Assembly: GCA_035290745.1 (NCBI GenBank)
Contig: DATDTS010000068.1
Location: 1-41,683 of the forward strand
DNA length: 41,683 nucleotides
From: Candidatus Bilamarchaeaceae archaeon
GTDB lineage: Archaea; Micrarchaeota; Micrarchaeia; Anstonellales; Bilamarchaeaceae
Direction: 5' to 3'
In this document: positions 3,037 through 30,782 of the stretch, in pieces
How the letters are laid out: every line of letters starts with the position of its first letter
Numbering within the stretch: position 1 is the stretch's first letter
Made by a program: the position numbers and the translations under genes
The notes under the pieces: model-generated
What the model was told of the DNA's origin: nothing
What the model saw: the letters and a program-made list of their open reading frames with translations, nothing else
Databases searched by the model: none

Positions 3037-3049
3037 AACACCACAATAC

Positions 3050-12133: not shown

Positions 12134-12140
12134 AAATAAT

Positions 12141-15953: not shown

Positions 15954-16901
15954 CTACTCCTTCTTCATAAAATATTCAATAGTTCTCTTGAGTCCATCAT
16001 CAAGTTTTACTTTAGGTTTCCACCCTAAAAGTTTTTCAGCCTTTGAAACATCAATAGAATAGTTCATTATCTCATTTTTTTTATACTCAATAGCACCATA
16101 GTCTATTAAGGCACTTTTTCCCATAATCTTACCTATGTTTTCGGCAATGTTTTTTATTTTATAGGATTTGCCATAGCCAACATTTATTATTTCTCCACTT
16201 GTTTTTTTATGCATAGCACCTGCAATAAGTTGTGCTTCAATTAAATCATCGATGTACAAAAAATCCCTAGTCTGCTCACCAGGAGTCATTTTAAAGTTCT
16301 GACCCATGTTTAGACTTTTTATTAAAGAAGGAATAAACATTTCTTCTCCTTGTTTTGGTCCATATACGATAGTTGTTCTCAACATTATTGCTTTTATGTT
16401 GTATAATTTATAGAATAGTTTCAAAAGTTGGTCTGCCGAAGATTTTGAAAATGCATAAGGAGATTCCGGGTTATCACTCATACTTTCTGTAACCGGAATT
16501 TCTACGCTACCATACTCCTCTATAGTACCAAGAGTTATTACAGGGATAGTAAGATTAGACTTAACTAACCCATTTAGCAGATTTAAAAGTCCTATCACAT
16601 TTATATCTATCAATGAATAAAAACTTTCAACCCCTCCCCCCCTATTCTTGTCGGCTGCAAGATGGAAAATAAAATCTGGTTTGATCTCATCTATTTTGTT
16701 AATAACCTCATTTTTTTCTCTTATATCAACAAAATATTGTTTTGTTAGGTTATTTTGATAAAAAACTTTTTTTTCGTTTTTCGACATTAGGTAAACCTTT
16801 GCACCAATGTTGAGTAATCTATCCTGTAGATATGAACCAATAAAACCAGTTGCACCAGTTATAAGTACTGTCTTGTCGATATATTCCTCTTTATATCCCA
16901 T
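15954..16901 (-). CDS. NAD-dependent epimerase/dehydratase family (extended SDR), possible nucleotide-deoxysugar 4-reductase
   Basis: VLITGATGFIGSYLQDRL Rossmann motif and YAFSK catalytic motif. It lies directly downstream of rfbH on the same strand. Confidence 0.8.
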   Translation of the reverse strand: MGYKEEYIDKTVLITGATGFIGSYLQDRLLNIGAKVYLMSKNEKKVFYQNNLTKQYFVDIREKNEVINKIDEIKPDFIFHLAADKNRGGGVESFYSLIDINVIGLLNLLNGLVKSNLTIPVITLGTIEEYGSVEIPVTESMSDNPESPYAFSKSSADQLLKLFYKLYNIKAIMLRTTIVYGPKQGEEMFIPSLIKSLNMGQNFKMTPGEQTRDFLYIDDLIEAQLIAGAMHKKTSGEIINVGYGKSYKIKNIAENIGKIMGKSALIDYGAIEYKKNEIMNYSIDVSKAEKLLGWKPKVKLDDGLKRTIEYFMKKE

Positions 16902-16992: not shown

Positions 16993-18303
16993 TTATAATC
17001 TTAAGAATTTTTCGAATTGATCAACAACATACATCCTCATTTCATTTGTTAAACCAGGATATACCCCAATCCAAAATGTATTGTTCATTATATAGTCAGA
17101 ATTCTTAAGATCCCCTATAATTTCATACTTTTCATCCAAATAAGCTGGTTGACGGATTAGATTGCCTCCAAAAAGCATTCTTGTTGTAATCTTTTTTGAT
17201 TCGAGAAAAGCTACAATCTGATTTTTAGTAAACTGAACTCCTTCTCGTATAGTAAGAGGAAACCCAAAAGGACTTGGGTCTGCCTTAGGGTGTTTTTTAG
17301 GAAGAACAAAATACTCTTCATAATCTTTTAGGTTTTGATAATAATAATTAAAATTTTCTTTCCTTTTCTTGATAAATTCTGGCAGTTTCTTGAGCTGCGC
17401 AAGACCAACTGCGGCTTGCATATCAGTGACTTTAAGATTGTAACCGATATTCGAATAAATGTACTTGTGATCGTACCCTTCTGGTAATTGTCCAAGTTTC
17501 CAGCCAAACCTTTTTCCACAGGTATTTGATTCACCTGGTTGGCACCAACAGTCTCTTCCCCAGTCCCTAAAAGATTCAATTGATTTCTTCAGAATCGGCT
17601 TGGAGGTTAAAACTGCGCCGCCTTCACCCATTGTCATATGGTGCGCCGGATAAAAACTTACAGTAGCAATATCTCCAAAAGTACCAACTGGCTTTCCATC
17701 AAAGGTAGCACCAACTGCGTCACAACAATCTTCTATTAAGTACAAACCATGTTTTTTTGCAATGCTTGTGATTTTATCTAGATCAAAAGGATTGCCGAGT
17801 GTATGAGCTAATACTATTCCGCGGGTTTTTTCATCTATTGCTTCCTCAAGCAAAGTGGTATCAATATTGTAAGTACCAAGTTCAACATCCAAAAAAACTG
17901 GGACTAAACCGTTCTGAAAAATTGGATTTACCGTTGTTGGAAATCCAGCCGTGACAGTTATGATCTTTTCTCCTTTTTTGAGCCTTTTTTCCCCAAGAGA
18001 TTTTGATGTTAATGCTGATAATGCTAAAAGGTTTGCAGATGAACCTGAATTGGCAAGAAGGCAATATTTTGAACCAAAAAATGTAGCAAATTCTTTTTCA
18101 AACTCTTGTGCATATTTTCCTGCTGTAAGCCAAAAATCAAGTGAACTGTCTACTAAATTAATAATTTCTTGTTCATCATAGACCCTTCCTGCGTATGGGA
18201 TTGCTGTTTCTCCTGGTTCAAACTTTGATTTGTTGGATTTTGACAGGTAAAACTGTTTAACAAGATTAAAGATAGCCCTCTTAATATCCGTATCTTCTTT
18301 CAT
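16993..18303 (-). CDS. rfbH: CDP-4-keto-6-deoxy-D-glucose 3-dehydratase (E1; RfbH/DdhC-type PMP enzyme)
   Basis: 436 aa, which is the RfbH size. The hallmark SFYPAHHMTMGEGGAV has His in place of the aminotransferase Lys. LANSGSSANLLA and WIGVYPGLT are also present. Confidence 0.85.
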   Translation of the reverse strand: MKEDTDIKRAIFNLVKQFYLSKSNKSKFEPGETAIPYAGRVYDEQEIINLVDSSLDFWLTAGKYAQEFEKEFATFFGSKYCLLANSGSSANLLALSALTSKSLGEKRLKKGEKIITVTAGFPTTVNPIFQNGLVPVFLDVELGTYNIDTTLLEEAIDEKTRGIVLAHTLGNPFDLDKITSIAKKHGLYLIEDCCDAVGATFDGKPVGTFGDIATVSFYPAHHMTMGEGGAVLTSKPILKKSIESFRDWGRDCWCQPGESNTCGKRFGWKLGQLPEGYDHKYIYSNIGYNLKVTDMQAAVGLAQLKKLPEFIKKRKENFNYYYQNLKDYEEYFVLPKKHPKADPSPFGFPLTIREGVQFTKNQIVAFLESKKITTRMLFGGNLIRQPAYLDEKYEIIGDLKNSDYIMNNTFWIGVYPGLTNEMRMYVVDQFEKFLRL

Positions 18304-18390
18304 AATTAGTTTACCAATACATAAGTTTTTATTTGATTCGAAACAGCAGAATATTAACGCTAAATCTAAGTAAACTTGTGAGTGGGAATA

Positions 18391-19269
18391 ATGGAAGAAA
18401 TAAATGCCGCAATAATAGGAAGCGGGAACATAGGTTCTGATCTTCTAGTAAAAATAATTAGGTCAAAATACATAAAATGTTCACTATTTGTAGGACGAGA
18501 TCTAAATTCTAAGGGAATAATACATGCTAAGAAATTAGGTATAAAAACAAGTTCTGAATCGATAGAGGCACTTGAAAAAGAATCTGGAAAATATGATATA
18601 ATTTTCGATGCTACAAGTGCGGAAATGCATAAACAGAATTCTCAAAGATTGTCAAAATTAGAAAAATTTGTAATAGACCTAACCCCAGCCAAAACCGGAA
18701 AGATGTGTGTTCCTTATATGAATTTAAAGGAATGCTTAAAAGAAAAAGAAATAAACCTAGTCAGTTGTGGTGGTCAGGCAACCATACCAGTAGCACATGT
18801 GATAAAAGAAACTTATCCTGATGTTAAATACATTGAAAATGTAACCTCAATTGCATCAAAATCAGCAGGACCTGCAACAAGACAAAATATCGATGAATAT
18901 GTTCAAACTACTCAAGATGCAATTAGATATTTCTCATCTGTAGACAAAACCAAGGTAATTTTAAACCTAAATCCAGCAGATCCACCTATTAACATGCATA
19001 ATACTACATATGTAGAAGTGAATGATGATATAGACCTTCCATTATTGAATATCAAACTAAAAGAGATGGTTAAAAAAATACAATCATATGTTCCAGGTTA
19101 TAACCTATTTCTTGGCCCATTATATAAAGATGGGGTAATAACTATTATGAATGAGGTAGTTGGACTGGGAGATTACCTACCAAAATATGCAGGAAATATG
19201 GACATTATGACCTGCGCAGCATTAACCGTAGCTGAGGAATATTCTAAAGGTATGATGAAAAAAAGATGA
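18391..19269 (+). CDS. acetaldehyde dehydrogenase (acetylating), DmpF/MhpF family
   Basis: AAIIGSGNIGSDLLVKI Rossmann motif and the catalytic-Cys motif SCGGQATIP. About 292 aa from the ATG at 18391; the ORF-track GTG at 18382 is an alternative start. Confidence 0.85.
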   Translation: MEEINAAIIGSGNIGSDLLVKIIRSKYIKCSLFVGRDLNSKGIIHAKKLGIKTSSESIEALEKESGKYDIIFDATSAEMHKQNSQRLSKLEKFVIDLTPAKTGKMCVPYMNLKECLKEKEINLVSCGGQATIPVAHVIKETYPDVKYIENVTSIASKSAGPATRQNIDEYVQTTQDAIRYFSSVDKTKVILNLNPADPPINMHNTTYVEVNDDIDLPLLNIKLKEMVKKIQSYVPGYNLFLGPLYKDGVITIMNEVVGLGDYLPKYAGNMDIMTCAALTVAEEYSKGMMKKR

Positions 19270-19273
19270 ATAT

Positions 19274-20299
19274 ATGAAAATCCCATTGATTATAGATTCA
19301 ACATTAAGGGATGGATCCCATGCAATGAGACACCAGTTTAGCTCGGAGAATATTACAGAGTATGCGGCAGGTGCAGAACGAGCAAGAGTTCCATTATTAG
19401 TTGTTGGGCACGGTAATGGATTAGGTGCAAGTTCATTACAATTAGGCAAAAGTTTACTCTCAGATTCTGAAATGATTTCGCTAGCTAGAAAACAACTTAA
19501 ACATACCAAACTTGGTGTTTTTATAATTCCAGGGTTCGGAACTGTTAGAGATGATTTAAAGCCTGCATTATCCTTGGGTGCTGACGTAATATTTGTAGCG
19601 TCTCATTGTTCTGAAGCGGATATCACCCAAACGCATATCAATTATTTAAAAAAACAGAATAGAAAGGCTATTGGGGTTCTAATGATGAGTCACATGCTTT
19701 CAGCTGATGAATTAGTTGAACAAGCTGATAAAATGCAAGAATATGGTGCTTATGGGGTTATGTTAATGGATTCAGCAGGTGCTTTATTGCCAACAGAGGT
19801 CAAAGAAAGAGTTTCCGCATTAGTTTCTAACCTAAGTATTAAAGTTGGTTTTCATGCCCATAACAACTTAGGGTGTGCAATTGCAAATTCTTTAGCAGCA
19901 TTAGAAGCAGGAGCTGGGATAATAGATACAACTTCAAGAGGACTAGGTGCAGGTGCAGGAAACTGCCAATTGGAAGTTTTTGTTGGTGTATTACATAAAA
20001 AAGGCATACAAACAGAAATTAATTTATACTGTGCAATGGATAATAGTGAAGAAATTGTAGCTAAATTTATGAAAAAACCACAGGTTATAAGTAGCACCAG
20101 TCTAGCAAGTGGATTGGCTGGGGTGTTTTCAGGATTTTGTCCAATTGCAGAAAAGGTATCAAAACAATTTGGTGTTGATCCGAGAGATATTTTAATGGAA
20201 CTGGGTAAAAGAAAGATTGTAGCAGGACAAGAAGATTATATTACTGATGTGGCTGCTGAACTGGCAAGGAAAAAAGCCTTTGGAGAAACAAGTTTATAG
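19274..20299 (+). CDS. 4-hydroxy-2-oxovalerate aldolase-like (DmpG/MhpE family, HMGL-like TIM barrel)
   Basis: IIDSTLRDGSHAMRHQF and GFHAHNNLGCAIANSLAALEAGA are DmpG-type motifs. It starts 5 nt after the DmpF-like stop, which is the canonical DmpFG pairing. Confidence 0.85.
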   Translation: MKIPLIIDSTLRDGSHAMRHQFSSENITEYAAGAERARVPLLVVGHGNGLGASSLQLGKSLLSDSEMISLARKQLKHTKLGVFIIPGFGTVRDDLKPALSLGADVIFVASHCSEADITQTHINYLKKQNRKAIGVLMMSHMLSADELVEQADKMQEYGAYGVMLMDSAGALLPTEVKERVSALVSNLSIKVGFHAHNNLGCAIANSLAALEAGAGIIDTTSRGLGAGAGNCQLEVFVGVLHKKGIQTEINLYCAMDNSEEIVAKFMKKPQVISSTSLASGLAGVFSGFCPIAEKVSKQFGVDPRDILMELGKRKIVAGQEDYITDVAAELARKKAFGETSL

Positions 20300-20306
20300 T
20301 GATACT

Positions 20307-21068
20307 ATGAAAAACACGACGTCTATTAAAAAGAGGCTTAAAGAAGGTGAAACTATCATTGGGACGTGGTGTTTAATTCCATCACCCCATGTAATAAATA
20401 TACTAGCAAATTCAGGTTTAGACTTTGTGTTAATTGACATGGAACATGGACCAATTAATATAACAGTTGCATCAGAGATGGTTTTAGCAACTGAAGAAAA
20501 ATGTGACGTATTAATCAGAGTTCCGAAAAATGATCCTGCACATATTCAATATGTTCTCGATATTGGTAGTTGTGGAGTTGTTATACCACATATCAAAAAT
20601 GTGGAGGACAGAAAAAAGGCTGTTTCTTATGTTAAATACCCTCCTATTGGTGATAGGGGGTTCTCTCCATATACCAAAGCTGGAAATTATACAAATAAAA
20701 CCACCCATACACGAATCCATAACGAAAACACGATTACAGCAATAATGATAGAAGATAAACATGCTCTAGATAATTTAGATCAAATCATAGATGACGAAAA
20801 TGTTGATATAGTTTATATTGGAACATATGATTTATCAGTTGCCCTTGGTATCCCAGGAGATGTTTCAAATCCAAAAGTTTTAAGTGAATTAGAAAAAGCT
20901 GTTAAAACCATTCATAAAAAAGGTAAAATTGCTGGGTGTATGGCACACAATAAAGCTGATCTTGACAAATTTAAGCAGTTGGGCATAACATTCGTTCTCT
21001 TCAAGGTTGATACCTCTATAATATCCGACGCTATTAAAAAAATCAAAACGGAGGATGAGACCGCATGA
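20307..21068 (+). CDS. HpcH/HpaI-family class II (pyruvate-dependent) aldolase
   Basis: GTWCLIPSPHVINILANSGLDFVLIDMEHGP, VLIRVP and GTYDLSVALG fit the HpaI/YfaU/GarL-type family. The start is trimmed to ATG at 20307, just past the upstream stop. Confidence 0.8.
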   Translation: MKNTTSIKKRLKEGETIIGTWCLIPSPHVINILANSGLDFVLIDMEHGPINITVASEMVLATEEKCDVLIRVPKNDPAHIQYVLDIGSCGVVIPHIKNVEDRKKAVSYVKYPPIGDRGFSPYTKAGNYTNKTTHTRIHNENTITAIMIEDKHALDNLDQIIDDENVDIVYIGTYDLSVALGIPGDVSNPKVLSELEKAVKTIHKKGKIAGCMAHNKADLDKFKQLGITFVLFKVDTSIISDAIKKIKTEDETA

Positions 21069-22840
21069 TTCGCGTGGCGGACTATGTGGCAGAGTTCATT
21101 TACAATTCCGGAGTAAAACACATCTTTTTAGTTACTGGGGGAGGTGCAATGCATCTCAATGATGGCATAGCAGCTCATAAAAAAATTAAATACGTTTGTT
21201 GTCATCATGAACAAACAGTTTCTATGGCAATTGAATCATACTCAAGAATTACAGAGAATCTTGGCGTTGGATGTGTAACCTCCGGTCCTGGTGGTACAAA
21301 TACTGTCACTGGAATAGTAAGTGCATGGCAAGATTCAATCCCGTGCATGATTATATCAGGGCAATCAAAGAGGAAAGAAACCATTGCACATTCAAAACTA
21401 GATGGTTTAAGACAATTTGGAAGTCTTGAGGTTAATATTGTAGATATTGTGAAATCAATCACTAAATATTCAGTTATGGTTATGGATCCGAAAATGATCC
21501 GTTATCATCTTGAAAAAGCAGTATATCTCGCAAAAAGCGGAAGACCTGGGCCTGTATGGATTGATGTACCCTTAGATGTTCAGGGTGCAATGGTCGATCA
21601 AAATACCTTAAAAAAGTTTACCCCGCCAGAAAAAAAGCAACCGGATATCTCCAAATCTCTAAAAGAACTAATTAAATTGTTAAAAAATGCCAAAAAACCT
21701 GTTGTAATTGCAGGTTCTGGAATTAGATCTGCAAAGGCCATTCCTCAATTTCTTTCATTTATTGAAAAAACAAACATCCCAACAGTTAATACTTTTATGA
21801 GCCTTGATATTATAGAAAATGACCATAGCTTATACATTGGAAGACTTGGAACAAAAGGGAATAGAGCTGCAAACTTTGCTGTTCAGAATGCCGATTTACT
21901 TATAGCAATAGGTACCAGCCTAAAAGTAACGGTTATAGGCTATGAATATGATTTGTTTGCACCAAAAGCAAAAAAAGTAGCAATAGATATAGATCCAATA
22001 GAACATAAAAAACCAACAATAAAAATAGATCTTTTTATTGAATCTGACGCAAAATATTTTCTAGAGGAGTTGTATAAGGAATGTAAGGATGAAAACATAA
22101 CCTCACCAGATCTTTGGAAAACAGTTTGTTCTAATTGGAAAAATAAATATCCACCTGTACTCGTATCTCAAGAATCAGATGAGATAGATATGTATTATTT
22201 TGTAGATCGTCTCTCAAACCATACTAAAAAAGAGGACATTATAATATGTGATGCTGGTTATCCATTTTATGTAGTGGCACAAGCATTAAGATTGAAAGAG
22301 GGGCAGAGGTACATAACTCCAGGAAGTCTTGGTACGATGGGGTATAATCTTCCTGCTGCTATAGGTGCCTCAACTGCTGATAAAAGTAAAAGGGTAATAT
22401 GTATTACAGGTGATGGTTCATTACAAATGAACATACAAGAGCTTCAGACGATTGTACACAACTCCATACCAGTAAAAATATTTGTCTTGAACAATTGTGG
22501 GTATGTATCGATTAAAGAAGCTCAGCTTAGATATTTTGGAAGAGTTATTGGCGCAGGAAAAGACACAGGGATATCATTTCCAGAATTATCCAAAATAGCC
22601 AATGCATATGGAATCAAATACATTACCGTATCTAATCCTAGCGAACTAGATACTGTTATAAAATCAACCTTAGAATATGATGAACCGGTTATCTGCGACA
22701 TTAAAACCACACAAAATCAAAAGATTAGTCCTATAGTAACTTCTGAGATAAGGCCTGATGGTTCCATGGTTTCAAAACCACTTGATGACATGTATCCTTT
22801 TTTAGATAGAAAGACATATTTCAATGAAACGAATGTATAA
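21065..22840 (+). CDS. thiamine-diphosphate-dependent enzyme, acetolactate-synthase-large-subunit-like three-domain architecture (YerE-like candidate)
   Basis: 591 aa. The N-terminal Pyr domain reads FLVTGGGAMHLND...HEQTVSMA. The ThDP motif is GDGSLQMNIQELQT...IFVLNNCGY (GDG-x-NN). Its ATGA start overlaps the aldolase stop. Confidence 0.85.
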   Translation: MIRVADYVAEFIYNSGVKHIFLVTGGGAMHLNDGIAAHKKIKYVCCHHEQTVSMAIESYSRITENLGVGCVTSGPGGTNTVTGIVSAWQDSIPCMIISGQSKRKETIAHSKLDGLRQFGSLEVNIVDIVKSITKYSVMVMDPKMIRYHLEKAVYLAKSGRPGPVWIDVPLDVQGAMVDQNTLKKFTPPEKKQPDISKSLKELIKLLKNAKKPVVIAGSGIRSAKAIPQFLSFIEKTNIPTVNTFMSLDIIENDHSLYIGRLGTKGNRAANFAVQNADLLIAIGTSLKVTVIGYEYDLFAPKAKKVAIDIDPIEHKKPTIKIDLFIESDAKYFLEELYKECKDENITSPDLWKTVCSNWKNKYPPVLVSQESDEIDMYYFVDRLSNHTKKEDIIICDAGYPFYVVAQALRLKEGQRYITPGSLGTMGYNLPAAIGASTADKSKRVICITGDGSLQMNIQELQTIVHNSIPVKIFVLNNCGYVSIKEAQLRYFGRVIGAGKDTGISFPELSKIANAYGIKYITVSNPSELDTVIKSTLEYDEPVICDIKTTQNQKISPIVTSEIRPDGSMVSKPLDDMYPFLDRKTYFNETNV

Positions 22841-22851
22841 ATTGTGATGAT

Positions 22852-23748
22852 ATGAGTAAGAAAAATATTTTTTTAACTGGTGGTACGGGATTTATTGGGA
22901 AAAATATTCTGGAACAGTTGTCCGATAAGTACAATATATACGCCCCAACTCATCCAGAATTAGAACTGGATGATACTGAAGCAGTCAAGGAGTATACAAA
23001 ATCCCATAATTTTGATGTAGTAATCCATGCTGCAAATTGGGGAGGAACCAGAAAAAAAACAGATGATCTTGTGAATAATGTTGAAAAAAATCTGAAGTTT
23101 TTTTTCAATATAACACGTTGTAAAGACCATTTTGGTAAGTTAATTAATTTAGGAAGTGGTGCAGAATATGGAAAGTTGTATTATACACCAAAGATGAAAG
23201 AGGACTATTTTGATAAACATGTGCCTGTAGATGAATATGGATTCTACAAGTATGTATGTTCTAAGTATATTGAAAAAATTGAAGATGCAGTTAATTTAAG
23301 AATATTTGGTTGTTATGGAAAATATGAAGATTACGAGATCAGATTTATTTCCAATGCTATATGTAAATCCATTTTTGATCTACCAATCACAATAGCAAAT
23401 AAAAATGTTTTTTTTGATTATTTGTACATCGATGATTTAATTAAAATAATAGAATATTTCATAAATAATACGGGAGAACATAGAGTCTATAATATAACAC
23501 CAGATAAATCTATTGATTTACTAACAATTGCTAAAAAAGTAAATAAAATAGCTGGAAAAAATTCAGAAATTATTATAAAAAATAAGGGAATTAACTTAGA
23601 ATATAGCGGAGACAACTCAAGATTAAAGGGCGAGATAAAAGGAATTAAATTTACTGAGATTGAAGATGGAATAAAAAAATTACATGAGTGGTACACAAAG
23701 AACAAAAAATTAGTTGAGTATGATAAGATTTCTATGGACAGATACTAA
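22852..23748 (+). CDS. NAD-dependent epimerase/dehydratase-family reductase (SDR), paralog A
   Basis: NIFLTGGTGFIGKNILEQL and YGFYKYVC (YxxxK). It is the last gene of the plus-strand aldolase/ThDP operon. Confidence 0.8.
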   Translation: MSKKNIFLTGGTGFIGKNILEQLSDKYNIYAPTHPELELDDTEAVKEYTKSHNFDVVIHAANWGGTRKKTDDLVNNVEKNLKFFFNITRCKDHFGKLINLGSGAEYGKLYYTPKMKEDYFDKHVPVDEYGFYKYVCSKYIEKIEDAVNLRIFGCYGKYEDYEIRFISNAICKSIFDLPITIANKNVFFDYLYIDDLIKIIEYFINNTGEHRVYNITPDKSIDLLTIAKKVNKIAGKNSEIIIKNKGINLEYSGDNSRLKGEIKGIKFTEIEDGIKKLHEWYTKNKKLVEYDKISMDRY

Positions 23749-24665
23749 AATTTAGACAAAGAACTTGATGGACTGCATTTATTTAAATATTCATTAGAAG
23801 CAATCTTTTTATCATCAATCAGATGCATATTTTGTTTGTAAAAATCAAAAAGATTTCTAATAGAAGAGCGATAGGTAGAGAATTTAAAATCGCCTAATTC
23901 AGTTTTAAGCCTTGAATTGTCACCACTATAAGTATAATTTAAACCATCGTTTATAATTTTTATGGAAGATTTCTTGCTAGACACAGAGTTGATAATATCT
24001 GAAACTTCCAAAAGGCTTATTGATTTGTTGGGAGAGAGATTATATGTTTTGTGTTTAGGTTTGTTTTTTATAAAATAATCTAAAATCTCCAGAAGATCTT
24101 GGATATAGATATAATCAAAAACGACGTTTTGATTAAGGATAATATCAAGACCTAAAATATTTCTAACTATGGCATTTGAAATAAACCTAAAATAACAATT
24201 TTCATACTTACCAAAAACACCAAATAGTCTTAAGTTGATAATGTTTTTTGATTTTTCAGTAAAATTGGCACAGACATATTTATAAAAACCATAGTCGTCT
24301 TTTGGAATACATTGGCCGAATTCTTCTTCTTTTATTTTTGACAAGTTACGATTTTTATCATATTCTGCACCAGATCCAAAATAGATTATTTTGTCTAAAC
24401 TATCAGCATGTCTAACAATGTTAAAAAAAATTCTTAAATTGTCACGAACTACATAACTCAAATCAGTAGTTGCTCTGTCCCCGCCCCTGTTTGCACAATG
24501 GATTATAGTGCCTATTTTATGTTTCTTTATATACTGACTAACTGCATTTTCATCTAGTAAGTCCAATTCAACATGAGAAGGTGAAAATATTGTATACTTT
24601 TCGTTAAAGTATTCATATATATTCTTACCTATAAAGCCAGTTCCACCGGTAACAAAAATATTCAT
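23745..24665 (-). CDS. NAD-dependent epimerase/dehydratase-family reductase (SDR), paralog B
   Basis: MNIFVTGGTGFIGKNIYEYF and YGFYKYVC. About half the residues are identical to 22852-23748 in a by-eye alignment. The start is trimmed to ATG at 24665. Confidence 0.8.
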   Translation of the reverse strand: MNIFVTGGTGFIGKNIYEYFNEKYTIFSPSHVELDLLDENAVSQYIKKHKIGTIIHCANRGGDRATTDLSYVVRDNLRIFFNIVRHADSLDKIIYFGSGAEYDKNRNLSKIKEEEFGQCIPKDDYGFYKYVCANFTEKSKNIINLRLFGVFGKYENCYFRFISNAIVRNILGLDIILNQNVVFDYIYIQDLLEILDYFIKNKPKHKTYNLSPNKSISLLEVSDIINSVSSKKSSIKIINDGLNYTYSGDNSRLKTELGDFKFSTYRSSIRNLFDFYKQNMHLIDDKKIASNEYLNKCSPSSSLSKF

Positions 24666-24751
24666 ATAACCTACCAACTTACCTAATACTATATTTATGA
24701 ATGACTTTAAAATTTTATCTTTATTACAAGCTTAGAGAACAAATAAAACAA

Positions 24752-25831
24752 CTACTCGCTAGGTCGTGCATGTACTCTTTCCCTGTTTTTTTGTATAAAT
24801 GTCTTCTTTTTAAAAAGTCTACAATAAGAGTAATAGAAAATAGCTATAAACTTTCTAATAGAATAAAATTGGAACAAAAAACAAATGATATAACAAAAAA
24901 ACGATAGAAAAGAAAAAGGATTTTGTCTTAGTTGCACTGATTTGAGTTTTTGAAGAACATCAATGAACTTTCTTTTTTTAGCTTCGTCTTTATCATCATT
25001 GAATATTGCAGATAAAACAAAAAAGTTTCTAAGATCTAATTTTAAATCGCAACTTTTTAAGTTGTGAGGGATACAAAAATCTCGATTCAAATCATCGTTA
25101 AGTTGAAGTCCTTTACCAAAACGAACCAAGTATATATCCAAATCAAACAAGTCTCCAAAACCTTGATATAAAACAACTGGGCGTTTCATAACACAAAATT
25201 TCTTAGAATTTAAAATAGATTTTAACGCAAAATAGGTCTGTTCGTAACTACCATATCTCCCAAATGGGAAAGGAAATTGCTTAATTAAATCAGTATTATA
25301 AACATTAACAAAGATGCCAGTAGAAGCTAAAAGAACATGCCGAATAACCTCTTTGTTTTTTTCAATCCCCTCATAACAAATAAAACCTGGAGTGTTAGAG
25401 TCTAAAACATCCGAAAAATTAAGAATATTGCTCTTATCAGCCCTTATTGCATTGCAAGCTAGGTAACTGACATCTCCCTCTTTTGTGAGATAGCTTATTA
25501 ATAAACTTAGTCTTCCAGGAATGAAATCGTCATCGTCACCTATAGTGAAAGTATACTTACCACTTGCCATTTCCAAAATTTTTTTAAAGTTGAGCGTAAA
25601 TCCTATGTTTTTATCAAATATATTTGTTTTTACTTTAATCTTAGGATTTTCTAAAATAAACTTTTTTATAATTTCTTGAGTATTATCCGTAGATCCATTA
25701 TCAGATATACAAAGTTCAATTTTATCTTCAAGATTTATTGTTTCCAACTTTAATTGATTTAGAGTTGATTCCAAAAAAACGGCTCGGTTGTAAGTAGGAA
25801 TACAAATGCTCAAAATTGGTCTTTTAGGCAT
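24752..25831 (-). CDS. glycosyltransferase family 2 with hydrophobic C-terminal segment
   Basis: LSICIPTYNRAVFLESTLNQL...ELCISDNGSTDNT and GDDDDF (DxD). Confidence 0.85.
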   Translation of the reverse strand: MPKRPILSICIPTYNRAVFLESTLNQLKLETINLEDKIELCISDNGSTDNTQEIIKKFILENPKIKVKTNIFDKNIGFTLNFKKILEMASGKYTFTIGDDDDFIPGRLSLLISYLTKEGDVSYLACNAIRADKSNILNFSDVLDSNTPGFICYEGIEKNKEVIRHVLLASTGIFVNVYNTDLIKQFPFPFGRYGSYEQTYFALKSILNSKKFCVMKRPVVLYQGFGDLFDLDIYLVRFGKGLQLNDDLNRDFCIPHNLKSCDLKLDLRNFFVLSAIFNDDKDEAKKRKFIDVLQKLKSVQLRQNPFSFLSFFCYIICFLFQFYSIRKFIAIFYYSYCRLFKKKTFIQKNRERVHARPSE

Positions 25832-25849: not shown

Positions 25850-26827
25850 TTAAGACCTTTTCAGATATTTGATATACCACGGAATTGTCTTATCAAGACC
25901 TTCGTCAATTGAATATCTAGATTCCCAGTTAAGTATTTTCTTAGCTTTTTCAGTGGAGAGGTATTGATTTTTTATTTCCCCTTTTGCATGGTTAAGTATC
26001 TCAGGTTTTAAAGTGGATTTCATCTTTTTTAGAACTAGATTTACAATATCTAATACTCTAAACTTATTTTCTGTACTTATATTAAATGCCTGTCCATTAA
26101 CTTTTTTATCACCAATTTTTTCACCAATACAGAGATATGCGTCAACAACATCTTCAACAAATAAATAATCTCTTATATACGTTCCATCGCTTCTTATAGT
26201 TGGTCGCTCATTAAAAACTACAGAGCGAATTGTTCCTGGGATAAGACGATTGAAATTCAAATCTCCGGGACCATAAATGTTTCCACAACGTGCAATAGAA
26301 ACAGGCAAACCATAGGTATGGTAGTATGATTGCACTATCAAATCAGAACAACTCTTAGAAGCATCGTATGGATGCCTTCCTTGTAAAGGAGTTTCTTCAG
26401 TATATGGAAGCTTTTCCTGATCACCATAAGCTTTATCAGAAGAAGCAAAAACAATTCTTTTAACAAGTTGGGAATTACGACACGCTTCCATAACATTCCA
26501 TGTTCCTTTAATGTTTGATTCAAATGTTGAAAGAGGAGATCTATTTGCAGTTCCAACAATTGTTTGGGCACCTAAATGAAAAACAGAATCGATCTCATAT
26601 TCGTTTAAAGCACGTTCAATAACAAAATAATCTTCTAGTCCACCATGAACTACATTCACAGCATTTAATTTAGAGGAACTAACTAGTAAAGAATTTGGAA
26701 TATGGTCTCTCATCAAGATAGTTATATTAGCACCTAGTTCAACAAATTTAGTACTAAGCCAAGAACCCAAAAGTCCCGATGCACCAGTTATAAACACATT
26801 CTTTTGAAGCCAAAAACTATCCTTCAT
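25850..26827 (-). CDS. rfbG: CDP-glucose 4,6-dehydratase
   Basis: [21 protein letters not shown] is an RfbG-type N-terminus, and YDASK is the catalytic motif. The start is trimmed to ATG at 26827, which overlaps the rfbF stop (TAATG). Confidence 0.8.
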
Positions 26828-27615
26828 TAATCCCACACCTTCCACGGCTTTTTACCTGAATCCCACATTTGGTTAAGTTCAAGATAGTCTTTATAAGTAT
26901 CCATTGCATGCCAAAATCCATTATGTTCAAAAAACGAGAATTGTTTATTAGTTACCAATTCCGTAAATGGCTTTCTTTCAAGTATACAATTATCATCATC
27001 ATCTAAATAATCAAAAATATCTTTTTTGAATGAAAAAAATCCTCCACCAACATAATCTTCTAGAACGGGTTTTTCAACAAACTCTTGAATTAAACCATTT
27101 TTACCAGGTTTAACCATACCAAATTTAGAACTTGGATGGACTGCTGTTAAAGTAGCAATGGTGTTTTGTTTCTTATGGAATGTATATAGCGAATCAAGGT
27201 TAACGTCCGACAATCCATCACCATATGTTGCCAAAAAATTATCAGAGTCTACGTATTTTTCGATCCTTTTTATTCGAGCACCAGTTTGTGCTTTTAAGCC
27301 AGTTTCTGCAAAGGTGACCGTCCAATCTTCCTCTTCTTTACCATGGTATTTTAGGTTATTTGAATGATCTTTAAGCATTATAGTAAAATCATTGTGCATC
27401 ATCTGATGGGAAAGAAAGAAATTTTTAATCGAATACCCCTTATACCCCAAACAGAGAATAAAATTGTCAAAACCATAATGTGAATATGTTTTCATAATAT
27501 GCCATAAAATTGGTAATCCTCCTATGCTAACCATTGGTTTTGGCTTGTATTCTGTTTCTTCTTTCAGACGGGTTCCTTCTCCCCCACATAAAATAACTAC
27601 AGGCGGTTTTTCCAT
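26827..27615 (-). CDS. rfbF: glucose-1-phosphate cytidylyltransferase
   Basis: [55 protein letters not shown] is the RfbF hallmark. 262 aa. Confidence 0.9.
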
Positions 27616-27628
27616 AAAATCTTCCCTA

Positions 27629-28564
27629 CTAGGTGATTATTTGATTGTGAACTAAAATATTTATAATGGAATCATAAATTTGTGATTCGCCTAGTCCGTT
27701 TTTGTCTCTCAGGTACTGATGAGAACCTACATATTTACAAAACATATCTGGCAAGGCGAATCTTTTAAATATAATATTTACACCGTTGTCTGCCAAAACT
27801 TCAGCAGTAGCACTCCCTAATCCACCAATTATACTGTGCTCTTCAATGCTAAAAATAGCTTTGGTATCCAACGCGGCTTTTAAGATTGCTTTTTGATCTA
27901 TAGGTTTTATAGTATGCATACTTATTAATCTGGTCGAAATTCCTCTCTTTTCAAGGGATAAACTGACCAAATGTGCAGTTTTTAGCATATTGCCAGTAGC
28001 TATAATTGTTATGTCACTTCCCTTCTTGACTATGATTGACTTTCCAATAGTAAACAACGGTTTAGTAGTATGTACGTGAGGATCACCATTCCTTCCGAGA
28101 CGGATATAGGCTGGCCCATGATAAGAATAAACCGCTCTTGCACATAGCTCAGCTTCAATTGGATCTCCAGGACAAATTACAACCATATTCGCAAGAGATC
28201 TCATAATAGAGATATCCTCAACAGCATGGTGAGTTGGTCCAAGTGAACCATAGGTAAGCCCACCACCGGAACCAACAAGTTTAACGTTTGCGTTCTGGTT
28301 ACAAACGTCATCCCTTATTTGTTCGAAACACCGCATGGTTAAGAAAGTTGATATAGAATATGAAAAAACAGTTTTACCTGATAAAGCAAGTCCTGCCGAG
28401 ATTCCAATCATATTAGCTTCTGCAACTCCGGTGTTTAGAAAACGATCTGGGAAATCTTGCTGAAATCTTTCAAAAAACGAAAACCCCATGTCTGCACTAA
28501 CTAAAAAAGTACTTTTATCTTTCTTAAAAATTTCATACAAAACATTGGTGAATGAATTTCTCAT
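27629..28564 (-). CDS. transketolase, C-terminal subunit (Pyr-binding plus C-terminal domain)
   Basis: FLNTGVAEANMIGISAGLALSGK and GPTHHAVEDISIMR. The start is trimmed to ATG at 28564, which overlaps the N-subunit stop (ATGA). Confidence 0.85.
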   Translation of the reverse strand: MRNSFTNVLYEIFKKDKSTFLVSADMGFSFFERFQQDFPDRFLNTGVAEANMIGISAGLALSGKTVFSYSISTFLTMRCFEQIRDDVCNQNANVKLVGSGGGLTYGSLGPTHHAVEDISIMRSLANMVVICPGDPIEAELCARAVYSYHGPAYIRLGRNGDPHVHTTKPLFTIGKSIIVKKGSDITIIATGNMLKTAHLVSLSLEKRGISTRLISMHTIKPIDQKAILKAALDTKAIFSIEEHSIIGGLGSATAEVLADNGVNIIFKRFALPDMFCKYVGSHQYLRDKNGLGESQIYDSIINILVHNQIIT

Positions 28565-29376
28565 TTGTGATCGAGCTCCTTTAGTGCATCTATACATTGT
28601 TTTTCATTTGGAGAGTGGTAATGCCATTCTAATTTATTTTCCATAAATGAAATCCCTTTTCCTTTGATAGTATGGCAGATTATGGCGGTAGGTTTATTGC
28701 CTTCAAAAGGAATTTTAGAAAAAGTATTTACAAGTTGTTGAATATTATGTCCATCCACTTCTTCTGCCCTCCAACCAAAAGAACGCCATTTATCCGAAAA
28801 TGGCTCCAGATCCATCACTTCTTTTACATTACCAAAACTTTGTATTTTATTATAATCAATAATAGCAATAACGTTGTTAAGTTTATAATGTCCTGCAGAC
28901 ATGATAGCCTCCCAAGTTGATCCTTCATCACATTCTCCATCACTGAGTAAAACAAAAACACGAGACTTTTTCTTATCATATCTTGATGCAAGGGCCATAC
29001 CAATTCCTAATGATAAACCATGCCCTAAAGAACCAGTAGATGCTTCAATTCCAGGAGCAGTACCCAAAGTCGAATGCCCTAAAAGTTTACCGCCATCTTT
29101 ATAGAATTCGTCAAGAAAACTCATCGGAAAGTAACCTCTTTCCGCAAGTGTTGCATAAAGCGCTACACTCGAATGACCTTTACTAAGAATAAAAATATCA
29201 CGATTTGGATCCTTTGGGCGTTCCGGATTAATAGCTAAGATCTCAAAATAAAGAGTTGTAAGTATGTCTATAATAGATAATGCAGAACCAATGTGAGATG
29301 CTTTCCCATTTGTCACCATCTTAATAGCATGTTTACGTATGTTTTTGGCATGTTCAACTAATTCTAAAAGATCCAT
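28561..29376 (-). CDS. transketolase, N-terminal (ThDP/PP-binding) subunit
   Basis: HIGSALSIIDIL, LSKGHSSVALYA, GSLGHGLS and LLSDGECDEGSTWEA...IIDYN (GDG-type ThDP motif). Confidence 0.85.
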   Translation of the reverse strand: MDLLELVEHAKNIRKHAIKMVTNGKASHIGSALSIIDILTTLYFEILAINPERPKDPNRDIFILSKGHSSVALYATLAERGYFPMSFLDEFYKDGGKLLGHSTLGTAPGIEASTGSLGHGLSLGIGMALASRYDKKKSRVFVLLSDGECDEGSTWEAIMSAGHYKLNNVIAIIDYNKIQSFGNVKEVMDLEPFSDKWRSFGWRAEEVDGHNIQQLVNTFSKIPFEGNKPTAIICHTIKGKGISFMENKLEWHYHSPNEKQCIDALKELDHK

Positions 29377-29425: not shown

Positions 29426-30721
29426 CTAGCTAAAAAGCTTCGCCTTTTCCATGGCACTTTCCACACATTTATCTGAGTTGTAATACCTAAATTCTGCAAA
29501 TCTGCCTGCAAGAGTTACATCAATTTCTTTTACATAATCGTATATTTTCTGAATGTTCTTCTCATAATCTAAGTCATATACTACATATACATACTTCCCA
29601 ACAATTGTTTTTGAATAATCAACTTCATCATCTGAAAAACCAAGGGCTTTGCCCATTTGTTCAACAACAGTCTCATTAACTTTGTCCTTGCCTAGTTTTG
29701 ATTTTTCTCCTTTAGGTGAAAACGTTGTTTCAGATAAGATAGATGACTTACCTTTTGGGACGTTGTGTGGACTCATATTAGAAGGAAAACTTATTCTATT
29801 TGGAAGAATTTCCTTATCAGGAAGGTACATCCAATGAAAATCATTTAACTTTTTATTAACACCAATCATTGTAAGGTAAGCAGAATTCCATTTTAGATTA
29901 TCAACTGCTTCTTGAACATCTTGTGGTACGTCTTCTAAAGTTCTAAAAAAGTCTTGAATATGAAAGGTATTCACAATTTTGTTATAAATTTTTTCCTGAC
30001 CTGAGTTAGACTTAACGACCCATTTATTGTTTTCTCTCTTGATTTTTTCAATTTTGAAACTTGAATGCAATCGTTCTTTTTCAATCTTAGAAACAAGAGA
30101 GTCACTTAGCGCTTGAAAACCTCCTTTGCTAGGATAATAAAAATACAATTGATGAGTATATCCCTCGGATTCCATATCCATTGCTGCTTTTATTACGTCT
30201 CTTGTTGGAGGTTGAGGAATTCTGCCTTCTACCCAAAAAAGAGCCATTTTGGAAAGATTATAATCCCAAATCTTGGCATTGTAGGGGTAGAGATATTTAT
30301 CGCATATCGATTTTCCAAATCTATAATACATCCATTCTTTGAAGTTTTGAGGCTTTGCCAGAGAGCCCTTTTCTCTTTCAATGTATGTATCAACATAATC
30401 AGCCAAGCAATCGAATGCTTCTTGTTTTTCAAGATCTCCAAGACCATTTTCAAAAGGATACTTAACAAGCTTGCCCCCATACAAAACTTTTGTATTTCTC
30501 TTGTGTTTTATTTTGTTGTTCCCAAGAAGATCAAGCTGAAAATCAAGGACTTCTTTATTCCTTGAGAAAACAATGTGAGAACCTAAATCAAAGGTGTAGC
30601 CTCTATCATAAATAGACCTACATAACCCACCAAAAGTTGAGTCCCCTTCTAGTACTTCTGAATCTTTCACTAAATGGGCAAAGGTAAGTCCTGTGATTCC
30701 TCCGCCTAGAACTCCAATCAT
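29426..30721 (-). CDS. FAD-dependent oxidoreductase (amine-oxidase / UDP-galactopyranose-mutase-like fold)
   Basis: MIGVLGGGITGLTFAH dinucleotide motif, followed by GGLCRS...GYTFDLGSHIVFS. The start is trimmed to ATG at 30721. The exact activity cannot be decided from the sequence. Confidence 0.6.
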   Translation of the reverse strand: MIGVLGGGITGLTFAHLVKDSEVLEGDSTFGGLCRSIYDRGYTFDLGSHIVFSRNKEVLDFQLDLLGNNKIKHKRNTKVLYGGKLVKYPFENGLGDLEKQEAFDCLADYVDTYIEREKGSLAKPQNFKEWMYYRFGKSICDKYLYPYNAKIWDYNLSKMALFWVEGRIPQPPTRDVIKAAMDMESEGYTHQLYFYYPSKGGFQALSDSLVSKIEKERLHSSFKIEKIKRENNKWVVKSNSGQEKIYNKIVNTFHIQDFFRTLEDVPQDVQEAVDNLKWNSAYLTMIGVNKKLNDFHWMYLPDKEILPNRISFPSNMSPHNVPKGKSSILSETTFSPKGEKSKLGKDKVNETVVEQMGKALGFSDDEVDYSKTIVGKYVYVVYDLDYEKNIQKIYDYVKEIDVTLAGRFAEFRYYNSDKCVESAMEKAKLFS

Positions 30722-30782
30722 ACAGTTTTTATTATTAGATAATATTAAAAATACAAAGATCAAGAAGGAGAATGGTGTCTTT

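What the first reader, a model, noticed from the sequence alone, without database searches (positions are those of the whole stretch)
16993..18303. CDP-3,6-dideoxyhexose core (rfbH with rfbF/rfbG) split across two operons, with no E3 reductase visible
RfbH (E1) is identified by SFYPAHHMTMGEGG. RfbF and RfbG lie about 7.5 kb away, at 25850-27615 on the same strand, and the aldolase/ThDP operon is inserted between them. In the established E1 mechanism the PMP/[2Fe-2S] enzyme needs the flavin/[2Fe-2S] reductase E3 (DdhD/AscD/RfbI). I see no ferredoxin-NADP-reductase-like or plant-type [2Fe-2S] ORF anywhere in this window. Either E3 is encoded elsewhere, a general reductase substitutes for it, or the FAD-dependent protein at 29426-30721 plays a role. 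The last option is pure speculation. 3,6-dideoxyhexoses are best known from Gram-negative bacterial O-antigens, so an archaeal occurrence would be notable.
Basis: partly seen in the sequence, partly recalled or inferred. Interest (0 to 1): 0.6.

Follow-up and report, generated by a model that had tools for sequence, protein, structure and literature searches.

The report
Archaeal E1 sugar dehydrase without E3
A tiny DPANN archaeon carries an intact iron-sulfur "E1" enzyme for making 3,6-dideoxy sugars but not its textbook reductase partner E3; that turns out to be the normal state for this enzyme outside Proteobacteria, and the genes lying "in between" are the next steps of the same pathway.

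Summary
ORF 16993-18303(-) is a full-length RfbH/E1 (NCBIfam equivalog 713 bits, cut-off 423). It aligns without gaps to Yersinia E1 (3BCX). It keeps the catalytic His and the four [2Fe-2S] cysteines (C194, C252, C254, C262). RfbF and RfbG lie at 25850-27615(-).

The operon between them is not an intruder. It has the erwiniose-type gene content (ErwJ, ErwI, HpcH aldolase, ErwE, reductase) whose carboligase takes the RfbH product as acceptor. Pectobacterium versatile has the same gene set plus E3. The nearest Micrarchaeote has rfbFGH contiguous and divergent from that operon.

E3 is missing, and not only here. I found no fused Fer2-FNR protein in this genome, in 201 genomes of the phylum, or in 100 loci of the nearest RfbH relatives. 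In my samples E3 next to RfbH is confined to two subclades, almost all Proteobacteria. The Cys ligands are invariant with or without E3, so an outside electron donor is still needed, most likely general carriers as shown for SpnQ. No dedicated partner emerged, and the FAD protein at 29426 is not one.

All 30 sampled archaeal RfbH fall in one archaea-dominated clade. The scan has met E3-less RfbH many times on other DNA. I class this as a modest variant of a known kind.

The parts
16993..18303 (-). RfbH / E1: CDP-6-deoxy-L-threo-D-glycero-4-hexulose 3-dehydrase (PMP plus [2Fe-2S])
   Evidence: NF011936 scores 712.7 bits against a cut-off of 423. Gapless alignment to 3BCX, E 2e-164. His221 and Cys194/252/254/262 are present and invariant in 160 homologs.
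15954..16901 (-). Extended SDR directly downstream of rfbH on the same strand; candidate CDP-sugar epimerase or reductase, specificity unknown
   Evidence: Pfam Epimerase/GDP_Man_Dehyd. Below every NCBIfam cut-off. Best PDB hit is a UDP-glucose 4-epimerase (4ZRM).
18304..18381 (.). 78-bp divergent intergenic region between rfbH and the erwJ-like gene
   Evidence: ORF coordinates and sequence. The nearest relative L005 has the same divergent layout between rfbFGH and the erw operon.
18382..19269 (+). ErwJ-like acetylating acetaldehyde dehydrogenase
   Evidence: TIGR03215 scores 354 bits against a cut-off of 282. Homologs lie in the L005 and L090 clusters. Role as in PMC9306805.
19274..20299 (+). 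ErwI-like 4-hydroxy-2-oxovalerate (DmpG-type) aldolase
   Evidence: TIGR03217 scores 395 bits against a cut-off of 286. Homologs in L005 and L090.
20247..21068 (+). HpcH/HpaI-family class II aldolase
   Evidence: PF03328 at 6.3e-30. A homolog (178 bits) sits between rfbH and erwE in Pectobacterium versatile L090.
21065..22840 (+). ErwE/YerE-like ThDP carboligase (acetolactate-synthase fold). Its proposed acceptor is the RfbH product.
   Evidence: Three TPP_enzyme domains. Below all acetolactate-synthase cut-offs. 534 bits to the L090 ErwE-like protein. A strong homolog (above 0.6 bit per residue) lies within 10 kb of RfbH in 29/80 and 22/80 loci.
22852..23748 (+). Short SDR, ErwF/YerF-like side-chain reductase candidate
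   Evidence: Pfam Epimerase. Its homolog closes the erw operon in L005 (319 bits).
23745..24677 (-). Paralogous SDR, last gene of the minus-strand tkt-rfbFG operon
   Evidence: Pfam Epimerase. Homologs sit next to rfbH or the tkt pair in L016, L170 and L171.
24752..25831 (-). GT2 glycosyltransferase in the rfbFG operon
   Evidence: PF00535 at 2.9e-20.
25850..26845 (-). RfbG-like NDP-glucose 4,6-dehydratase (probably CDP-specific). The real start is probably the ATG at 26827.
   Evidence: TIGR02622 scores 198.7 bits, below the 278 cut-off. PDB hits to CDP- and dTDP-glucose 4,6-dehydratases. It carries SSDKAYG and YDASK. Strong homologs lie in rfbF-rfbG-rfbH strings in 47/80 nearest loci.
26827..27615 (-). 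RfbF: glucose-1-phosphate cytidylyltransferase
   Evidence: TIGR02623 scores 297.5 bits against a cut-off of 300.25. Strong homologs lie beside RfbH in 58/80 and 74/80 loci.
27629..29376 (-). Split transketolase-like pair (N subunit 28561-29376, C subunit 27629-28597), co-oriented upstream of rfbF
   Evidence: Pfam Transketolase_N; Transket_pyr plus Transketolase_C. In relative L171 the order tktN-tktC-rfbF-rfbG-rfbH is on one strand. A homolog of the N subunit lies near RfbH in 7/80, 15/80 and 4/20 loci.
29426..30763 (-). Amine-oxidase-fold FAD protein. It is not an FNR or ferredoxin type and is not a conserved neighbour of RfbH.
   Evidence: PF01593 plus PF13450. PRK07208-type, below cut-off. 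Any homolog occurs in only 2/80 and 1/80 RfbH loci, and none above 100 bits in 20 loci of the phylum.

Best explanation
The ORF at 16993-18303 encodes a functional E1-type (RfbH/DdhC/AscC) PMP- and [2Fe-2S]-dependent 3-dehydrase.

Proposed pathway. RfbF makes CDP-glucose. RfbG makes CDP-4-keto-6-deoxyglucose. RfbH removes the C3 hydroxyl to give CDP-4-keto-3,6-dideoxyglucose. The divergently transcribed operon next to rfbH (ErwJ, ErwI, HpcH aldolase, ErwE-like ThDP carboligase, SDR) then attaches and reduces a carbon side chain on C4. The product would be an erwiniose-like branched 3,6-dideoxyhexose for a surface glycan. The split transketolase upstream of rfbF may make a second kind of branch.

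The physical separation of rfbH from rfbFG is a local rearrangement of a cluster that is contiguous in relatives.

The organism has no E3. Like all sampled RfbH enzymes outside Proteobacteria, this E1 most likely takes its two electrons from general cellular carriers. Candidates are a small ferredoxin reduced by the stand-alone FNR-like flavoprotein or by the 2-oxoacid:ferredoxin oxidoreductase. This would parallel SpnQ, which works with ferredoxin/ferredoxin reductase or flavodoxin/flavodoxin reductase.

Shown here: enzyme identity, ligand conservation, gene content, and absence of E3. Inferred: substrate, product, and the identity of the electron donor.
For: Identity: the NCBIfam equivalog scores 713 bits against a cut-off of 423. 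The alignment to 3BCX is gapless. His221 and the C-X57-C-X-C-X7-C cysteines are present and invariant in 160/160 homologs.

Pathway link: L090 (Pectobacterium versatile) reads E3-rfbF-rfbG-rfbH-hpcH-erwE-SDR-erwJ-erwI. L005 (nearest Micrarchaeote) has rfbF-rfbG-rfbH divergent from erwJ-erwI-erwE-SDR. The published scheme makes CDP-4-keto-3,6-dideoxyglucose the proposed ErwE acceptor (PMC9306805). A strong ThDP-enzyme homolog lies within 10 kb of RfbH in 29/80 and 22/80 loci.

No E3: there is no fused Fer2-FNR in the own genome. The E3 profile was validated on 32 positive loci and by Pfam. It finds 0/80 nearest loci, 0/20 loci of the phylum and no full-length match in 201 genomes of the phylum, 152 of them at least 90% complete. 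It also finds none in Methanoregula, two Paenibacillus isolates and Microcoleus. E3 linkage clusters in two subclades that are almost all Proteobacteria (6 changes against 29.5 in shuffles).

Possible donors in the genome: a 222-aa FAD_binding_6 plus NAD_binding_1 protein, two 90-aa Fer2 ferredoxins and one OFOR alpha subunit.

Precedent: SpnQ uses Fd/FNR or Fld/FldR in place of E3 (review PMC8987622).
Against: There is no biochemistry; substrate, product and electron donor are all inferred.

RfbG scores below the CDP-glucose 4,6-dehydratase cut-off, and RfbF scores just below its own.

The genome is only 75% complete.

No candidate donor tracks RfbH. The FNR-like protein is in 176/201 genomes of the phylum regardless of RfbH. 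Eight RfbH-positive genomes, up to 96% complete, have no Fer2 ferredoxin. No flavodoxin was found, and the 4Fe-4S ferredoxin matches are weak.

ErwE-type activity has been shown in vitro only with surrogate acceptors, not with the CDP-sugar.
Confidence: 0.7

Rival explanations
1. A dedicated 'split E3': the stand-alone FNR-like flavoprotein (G000 C99, L001 1201-1869) plus one of the two 90-aa [2Fe-2S] ferredoxins (L003, L004) form a specific two-protein equivalent of E3 for RfbH.
For: Together they supply all three E3 domains. The FNR-like protein scores 95 bits against the E3 profile over positions 113-305. 15 of 23 RfbH-positive genomes of the phylum have a Fer2 ferredoxin, against 45 of 178 RfbH-negative ones.
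Against: The genes are unlinked to the sugar cluster and to each other. The FNR-like protein is near-universal in the phylum (176/201) whether or not RfbH is present. The Fer2 enrichment disappears within families: in f1 it is 5/8 against 21/37, and in f2 it is 14/14. Eight RfbH-positive genomes lack Fer2 and three lack the FNR-like protein.
Confidence: 0.2
2. E3 exists but lies in the unassembled quarter of the genome.
For: Completeness is 74.9% in 99 contigs. In some Proteobacteria without an adjacent E3, a full-length E3-like gene lies elsewhere: Janthinobacterium at 351 bits and Pigmentiphaga at 345 bits.
Against: No full-length E3 match was found in any of 201 genomes of the phylum, 152 of them at least 90% complete and 21 carrying RfbH above cut-off. 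None was found in 100 related loci, nor in the isolate genomes of two Paenibacillus species and Microcoleus.
Confidence: 0.04
3. The enzyme needs no reductase. It works like ColD (PLP/PMP cycling with an amino-acid donor), and the cluster is structural or vestigial.
For: ColD does this chemistry without Fe-S or a reductase. The window encodes a separate ColD-like His-for-Lys enzyme. An earlier scan note (e1-5229435, not tested here) describes Fe-S-free RfbH relatives.
Against: All four cluster cysteines are invariant in 128 homologs that have no E3 within 10 kb, which argues for a working cluster. According to the review, E1 shows no transaminase-type turnover under SpnQ-like conditions.
Confidence: 0.05
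4. The amine-oxidase-fold FAD protein at 29426-30763 is the E3 substitute.
For: It is a flavoprotein and it heads the operon that contains rfbF and rfbG.
Against: It has no Fe-S or FNR-type domain. Homologs lie near RfbH in only 2/80 and 1/80 loci, and none above 100 bits in 20 loci of the phylum. It is divergently paired with an LPG_synthase_TM membrane protein, which points to a lipid- or glycan-related role.
Confidence: 0.02

Closest known systems
E1/E3 system of Yersinia pseudotuberculosis and Salmonella (AscC/DdhC/RfbH with AscD/DdhD/RfbI; PDB 3BCX)
   Same: The window protein is about 52% identical to a Yersinia RfbH and aligns without gaps to 3BCX. It has the catalytic His, the four [2Fe-2S] cysteines, and the upstream RfbF and RfbG enzymes.
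   Different: There is no E3 (fused Fer2-FAD-NAD reductase) in the cluster, in the genome or in the phylum. The genes are not in one ddhDABC operon. The host is a DPANN archaeon.
SpnQ of Saccharopolyspora spinosa (E3-independent Fe-S 3-dehydrase)
   Same: It is an Fe-S plus PMP 3-dehydrase with no dedicated reductase gene. In vitro it is served by general ferredoxin or flavodoxin reductase pairs (review PMC8987622). This is the working model adopted here.
   Different: SpnQ acts on a TDP-2,6-dideoxy sugar in a secondary-metabolite pathway. Here the context is CDP-glucose (RfbF, RfbG) and a surface-glycan island. Sequence relatedness to SpnQ was not measured.
Erwiniose cluster of Pectobacterium (ErwE, ErwF, ErwI, ErwJ; Steitz et al. 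2022, PMC9306805)
   Same: The gene content matches that of P. versatile L090: rfbF, rfbG, rfbH, HpcH aldolase, ErwE-like ThDP enzyme, SDR, ErwJ and ErwI.
   Different: Pectobacterium has E3 at the head of the cluster and the window has none. The gene order differs. The window adds a split transketolase and a second SDR.
ColD (GDP-4-keto-6-deoxymannose 3-dehydratase)
   Same: Same fold, and His in place of the PLP lysine.
   Different: ColD has no Fe-S cysteines and needs no reductase. RfbH here keeps all four cysteines. A separate ColD-like gene lies at 12141-13334.

Membership tests
E1 (RfbH/DdhC/AscC) CDP-4-keto-6-deoxyglucose 3-dehydrase | Full-length match above the curated equivalog cut-off | tested here: met
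   NF011936 scores 712.7 bits against a cut-off of 423, over residues 3-435 of 436. 3BCX matches at E 2e-164 without a gap.
E1 (RfbH/DdhC/AscC) CDP-4-keto-6-deoxyglucose 3-dehydrase | His replaces the PLP-binding Lys (E1 His220) | tested here: met
   His221 aligns with His220 of 3BCX and with Lys220 of the H220K mutant 3BB8. It is invariant in 160 homologs.
E1 (RfbH/DdhC/AscC) CDP-4-keto-6-deoxyglucose 3-dehydrase | Four-cysteine [2Fe-2S] motif C-X57-C-X1-C-X7-C. The motif wording is from memory of Agnihotri et al. 2004, which is cited in PMC8987622 but was not readable here. | tested here: met
   Cys194, 252, 254 and 262 have exactly these spacings. They align with E1 Cys193, 251, 253 and 261. 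They are invariant in 160/160 homologs.
E1 (RfbH/DdhC/AscC) CDP-4-keto-6-deoxyglucose 3-dehydrase | CDP-sugar supply: a glucose-1-P cytidylyltransferase and a 4,6-dehydratase in the cluster | tested here: met
   RfbF scores 297.5 bits on TIGR02623 (cut-off 300.25). RfbG is a 4,6-dehydratase-type SDR that scores below the TIGR02622 cut-off but is syntenic with rfbF and rfbH in relatives.
E1 (RfbH/DdhC/AscC) CDP-4-keto-6-deoxyglucose 3-dehydrase | Bound PMP and [2Fe-2S], and C3 deoxygenation activity | not testable with these tools
   This needs purified protein.
Two-component E1/E3 deoxygenation system (ddhABCD / ascABCD / rfbFGHI) | An E3 reductase (Fer2 plus FAD_binding_6 plus NAD_binding_1 in one chain) encoded with E1 | tested here: not met
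   No such domains occur in the window. The E3 profile gives 32 positive controls but 0/80 and 0/20 related loci.
Two-component E1/E3 deoxygenation system (ddhABCD / ascABCD / rfbFGHI) | E3 encoded elsewhere in the genome | tested here: not met
   The own genome has only an FNR-like match over profile positions 113-305 and a ferredoxin fragment. No full-length match exists in 201 genomes of the phylum. Caveat: the own genome is 75% complete.
SpnQ-type E3-independent Fe-S 3-dehydrase | Fe-S motif and catalytic His present, no dedicated reductase gene | tested here: met
SpnQ-type E3-independent Fe-S 3-dehydrase | Turnover supported by general ferredoxin or flavodoxin reductase pairs | not testable with these tools
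   Candidate carriers exist: an FNR-like protein, two Fer2 ferredoxins and an OFOR. None tracks RfbH.
ColD-type reductase-independent 3-dehydratase | No Fe-S cysteine motif | tested here: not met
   All four cysteines are present and conserved. RfbH is therefore not of ColD type.
Erwiniose-type acyl-branched 3,6-dideoxyhexose cluster | ErwE-like ThDP carboligase, ErwF-like reductase, ErwI aldolase and ErwJ aldehyde dehydrogenase next to the genes for CDP-4-keto-3,6-dideoxyglucose | tested here: met
   Family hits. Homologs score 289-534 bits against the Pectobacterium versatile cluster L090. The scheme is in PMC9306805.

The most novel reading that the evidence does not exclude
E1-type dehydrases outside Proteobacteria, including all sampled archaeal ones, may be wired to a different, still unidentified electron source. 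One candidate is ferredoxin reduced directly by 2-oxoacid:ferredoxin oxidoreductase. That would couple sugar C3 deoxygenation to central anaerobic redox metabolism rather than to NADH through E3. In that case the fused E3 would be a late proteobacterial add-on to an older E3-free enzyme.
Probability: 0.2. Interest if true: 0.55.

Novelty: new variant of a known kind. Interest (0 to 1): 0.38.

Why it matters
The textbook picture of C3 deoxygenation (E1 plus its private reductase E3) comes from Yersinia and Salmonella. In the loci sampled here that pairing is a proteobacterial speciality. The enzyme keeps its iron-sulfur ligands in every other lineage sampled, archaea included, yet has no partner gene. 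This locus is therefore a clean, small-genome case for asking what reduces E1 in most organisms. It also predicts that a DPANN archaeon decorates its surface with a branched 3,6-dideoxy sugar, a sugar class so far described chemically only from bacteria. My literature search found no archaeal report.

Tried and rejected
1. I looked for any conserved alternative redox partner near E3-less RfbH by clustering all ORFs within 6 kb in 80 loci. Only SDRs, RfbF, the ThDP enzyme and a NeuB-like protein recur. No reductase or ferredoxin does.

2. I tested co-occurrence of RfbH with the FNR-like protein and with Fer2 ferredoxins across 201 genomes of the phylum. There is no signal beyond shared ancestry.

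3. I looked for an E3-specific NCBIfam model to use as a family query. None appeared among the hits to the FNR-like protein, so I built an E3 profile from 12 loci instead.

4. The first regex and phmmer scan for E3 gave zero hits and had no positive control. I repeated it after fetching proteobacterial loci, where it found E3 readily.

5. I tried to read the primary E1 structure paper and the SpnQ paper (PMC2782820, PMC2515268). Neither is held. I used the 2022 review instead.

6. The FAD protein at 29426 as a reductase is rejected on neighbourhood counts.

7. A recent bacterial origin for this particular gene is rejected. All 30 sampled archaeal copies fall in one clade.
Full report
**1. Is it there?**

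Yes. The ORF at 16993-18303(-) is 436 aa. It belongs to the DegT/DnrJ/EryC1 family (1.1e-98). It scores 712.7 bits on the NCBIfam equivalog model for RfbH, whose cut-off is 423.

It aligns from residue 6 to 434, without a single gap, with Yersinia pseudotuberculosis E1 (PDB 3BCX, E 2e-164). The register is query position = E1 position + 1.

The PDB also holds the H220K mutant (3BB8). Comparing the two alignments shows that His221 of the window protein is the residue that replaces the PLP lysine.

The protein has cysteines at 194, 252, 254 and 262, which gives the spacing C-X57-C-X1-C-X7-C. From memory, this is the [2Fe-2S] motif published for E1 (Agnihotri et al. 2004). That paper is cited in PMC8987622, but I could not read it. 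These cysteines align with E1 Cys193, 251, 253 and 261.

In an alignment of 160 homologs from two independent samples, the four Cys and the His are invariant.

RfbF (26827-27615, -) scores 297.5 bits on the glucose-1-phosphate cytidylyltransferase model, a hair under the 300.25 cut-off.

RfbG (25850-26845, -) is a 4,6-dehydratase-type SDR:
- It scores 198.7 bits on the CDP-glucose 4,6-dehydratase model, whose cut-off is 278.
- Its PDB hits to CDP- and dTDP-glucose dehydratases are about equally strong.
- It carries SSDKAYG and YDASK. From memory, Asp-Lys rather than Asp-Glu is the CDP-type signature.
- Strong homologs of this RfbG sit in rfbF-rfbG-rfbH strings in 47 of the 80 nearest loci. Its role is therefore supported by synteny more than by the model score.

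**2. The "inserted" operon belongs to the pathway.**

The plus-strand operon at 18382-23748 starts 78 bp from rfbH, divergently. It encodes five proteins:
- an acetylating acetaldehyde dehydrogenase;
- a DmpG-type 4-hydroxy-2-oxovalerate aldolase;
- an HpcH/HpaI aldolase;
- an acetolactate-synthase-fold ThDP enzyme that fails every acetolactate-synthase cut-off;
- a short SDR.

In Pectobacterium atrosepticum, ErwJ (aldehyde dehydrogenase) and ErwI (aldolase) are proposed to make 4-hydroxy-2-oxopentanoate. The ThDP enzyme ErwE is proposed to add it to CDP-4-keto-3,6-dideoxyglucose, the E1 product, and ErwF to reduce the adduct. ErwE activity was shown with surrogate acceptors.

I then checked synteny myself.
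- Locus L090 of Pectobacterium versatile reads E3-rfbF-rfbG-rfbH-HpcH aldolase-ErwE-SDR-ErwJ-ErwI. Scores against the window proteins run from 178 to 545 bits, apart from the SDR, which is only distantly related (26 bits). The window thus carries a counterpart of every gene of that set except E3.
It is present in this Pectobacterium cluster too (Pfam confirmed).
- In L005, the closest relative (a Micrarchaeote, 66% identical RfbH), rfbF-rfbG-rfbH are contiguous and divergent from erwJ-erwI-erwE-SDR.
- In 20 further RfbH loci from the same phylum, rfbFGH are contiguous in most.
- In L171 the string tktN-tktC-rfbF-rfbG-rfbH lies on one strand.

The window's separation of rfbH from rfbFG is therefore a local rearrangement of one functional cluster, not two unrelated operons.

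**3. Is E3 really missing?**

The window has no Fer2, FAD_binding_6 or NAD_binding_1 domain.

In the whole assembly (1.10 Mb, 99 contigs, 74.9% complete), NAD_binding_1 finds two proteins:
- a 222-aa stand-alone FNR-like protein on C99;
- PyrK, next to PyrD.

Fer2 finds two 90-aa ferredoxins.

To get a proper probe and a positive control I fetched the 80 nearest relatives of Yersinia E1. In 32 of them a ~330-aa ORF about 2 kb upstream of E1 matches the profile I built from 12 such ORFs, all above 200 bits. Pfam confirms Fer2 plus FAD_binding_6 plus NAD_binding_1 in two of them.

The same profile gives these results:
- No hit at all in the 80 nearest relatives of the window's RfbH, searched 10 kb on either side.
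- No hit in 20 RfbH loci from the phylum.
- In the own genome, only the FNR-like protein (profile positions 113-305) and a ferredoxin fragment.
- In 201 genomes of the phylum (152 at least 90% complete), only FAD/NAD-domain matches starting at about profile position 75-140. None is full length.

Whole-genome searches of other taxa:
- No full-length E3 in three Micrarchaeota, a Methanoregula, two Paenibacillus isolates and a Microcoleus.
- Full-length E3-like genes elsewhere in the chromosome in Janthinobacterium (351 bits) and Pigmentiphaga (345 bits).

On a tree of 161 RfbH sequences, E3 linkage needs only 6 changes, against 29.5 in shuffles. It is confined to two subclades that are almost entirely Proteobacteria, with a few Bacteroidota rows.

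The missing partner is therefore real. It is not explained by MAG incompleteness. In these samples it is the normal condition for RfbH outside Proteobacteria.

**4. What supplies the electrons?**

The cluster ligands are invariant in the 128 homologs with no E3 within 10 kb. The cluster is presumably used, so an external donor is needed.

The review PMC8987622 states that SpnQ, the other Fe-S 3-dehydrase, works with ferredoxin/ferredoxin reductase or flavodoxin/flavodoxin reductase pairs in place of E3.

In this genome the three E3 domains exist as separate proteins: the FNR-like protein and two Fer2 ferredoxins. There is also a 2-oxoacid:ferredoxin oxidoreductase alpha subunit. No flavodoxin was found, and 4Fe-4S ferredoxin matches are weak.

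I tested whether any of these tracks RfbH across the phylum.
- The FNR-like protein is in 176 of 201 genomes regardless of RfbH.
- Fer2 ferredoxins are in 15 of 23 RfbH-positive genomes, against 45 of 178 others.
- Within families the difference vanishes. Eight RfbH-positive genomes, up to 96% complete, have no Fer2 ferredoxin.
- Clustering all neighbours of E3-less RfbH found no recurrent redox protein.
Its homologs are near RfbH in only 2 of 80 and 1 of 80 loci.

My conclusion is that general carriers, not a dedicated partner, reduce this E1. Which carrier does so remains open.

**5. Archaeal occurrence and origin.**

RfbH above the curated cut-off occurs in 21 of 201 sampled genomes of the phylum, plus two copies truncated at contig ends. 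It also occurs in Methanoregula, Methanobacteriaceae and Helarchaeota MAGs.

In an IQ-TREE (quick) tree of 113 sequences, all 30 archaeal copies fall into one 36-row clade. Its SH-aLRT support is 83, and six bacterial rows are nested inside it. The domain label needs 3 changes, against 26.6 in shuffles.

Rooted on the window's own ColD-like protein, this clade sits within bacterial diversity. That outgroup branch is very long, so the direction of transfer is not established.

The gene is thus long resident and mobile among archaea, not a recent bacterial import into this MAG.

A text search found no paper describing 3,6-dideoxyhexoses in archaea. The prediction is chemically untested.

**6. 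Comparison with the known, and verdict.**

The enzyme passes every sequence test for E1. The system fails the defining test of the E1/E3 pair. It works, by inference, like SpnQ. It feeds an erwiniose-type branching module published in 2022.

The scan has noted E3-less RfbH on many other genomes. One follow-up there (e1-1442116) reached the same conclusion, that the absence is normal for this branch. My counts are independent of it.

I class the finding as a new variant of a known kind, of modest interest. It is a clean archaeal, small-genome example of a widespread but biochemically unexplained E3-free E1.

Noticed in passing
window 10157-13334 (+): Gmd (TIGR01472, 499 bits), an Fcl-like SDR, and a DegT-family protein (P0002) that has His where perosamine synthase has the PLP lysine and has no Fe-S cysteines. 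This looks like a second, ColD-type (GDP-colitose-like) 3-deoxygenation route in the same island. A strong homolog (587 bits) lies near Gmd and RfbH in relative L184.
   Followed up: partly
window 27629-29376 (-); L171, L177, L186, L006, L031: A split transketolase-like pair sits directly upstream of rfbF. In L171 the order tktN-tktC-rfbF-rfbG-rfbH is on one strand. A homolog of the N subunit recurs near RfbH in 7/80, 15/80 and 4/20 loci. It may add a second, two-carbon branch to the same 4-keto sugar.
   Followed up: partly
L078:10761-11909 and 19 other loci among L005-L084: A NeuB-family (PEP-condensing) protein with a SAF domain lies immediately downstream of E3-less RfbH in 20 of 80 bacterial loci. 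This hints at another, undescribed use of the RfbH product.
   Followed up: no
L090:11475-12260 (Pectobacterium versatile): An HpcH/HpaI aldolase lies between rfbH and the ErwE-like gene in this Pectobacterium cluster. The window's 'extra' aldolase (20247-21068) therefore has a counterpart in a bacterial erwiniose-type cluster.
   Followed up: partly
G000 C99 (L001 1201-1869) and 176 of 201 genomes of the phylum: A stand-alone ~220-250-aa FAD_binding_6 plus NAD_binding_1 protein is near-universal in this DPANN phylum. It is distinct from PyrK, and its function and partner are unknown.
   Followed up: partly
window 2032-4899 (-): GHMP kinase, SIS isomerase, nucleotidyltransferase and HAD phosphatase lie in a row. 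This is the gene content of a GDP-glycero-manno-heptose pathway.
   Followed up: no
window 35669-37465 (+) and 40866-41417 (+): Two ORFs, of 598 aa and 183 aa, have no Pfam match at E 0.01. The 598-aa protein has homologs (149-372 bits) in loci L173 and L181 of the phylum.
   Followed up: no
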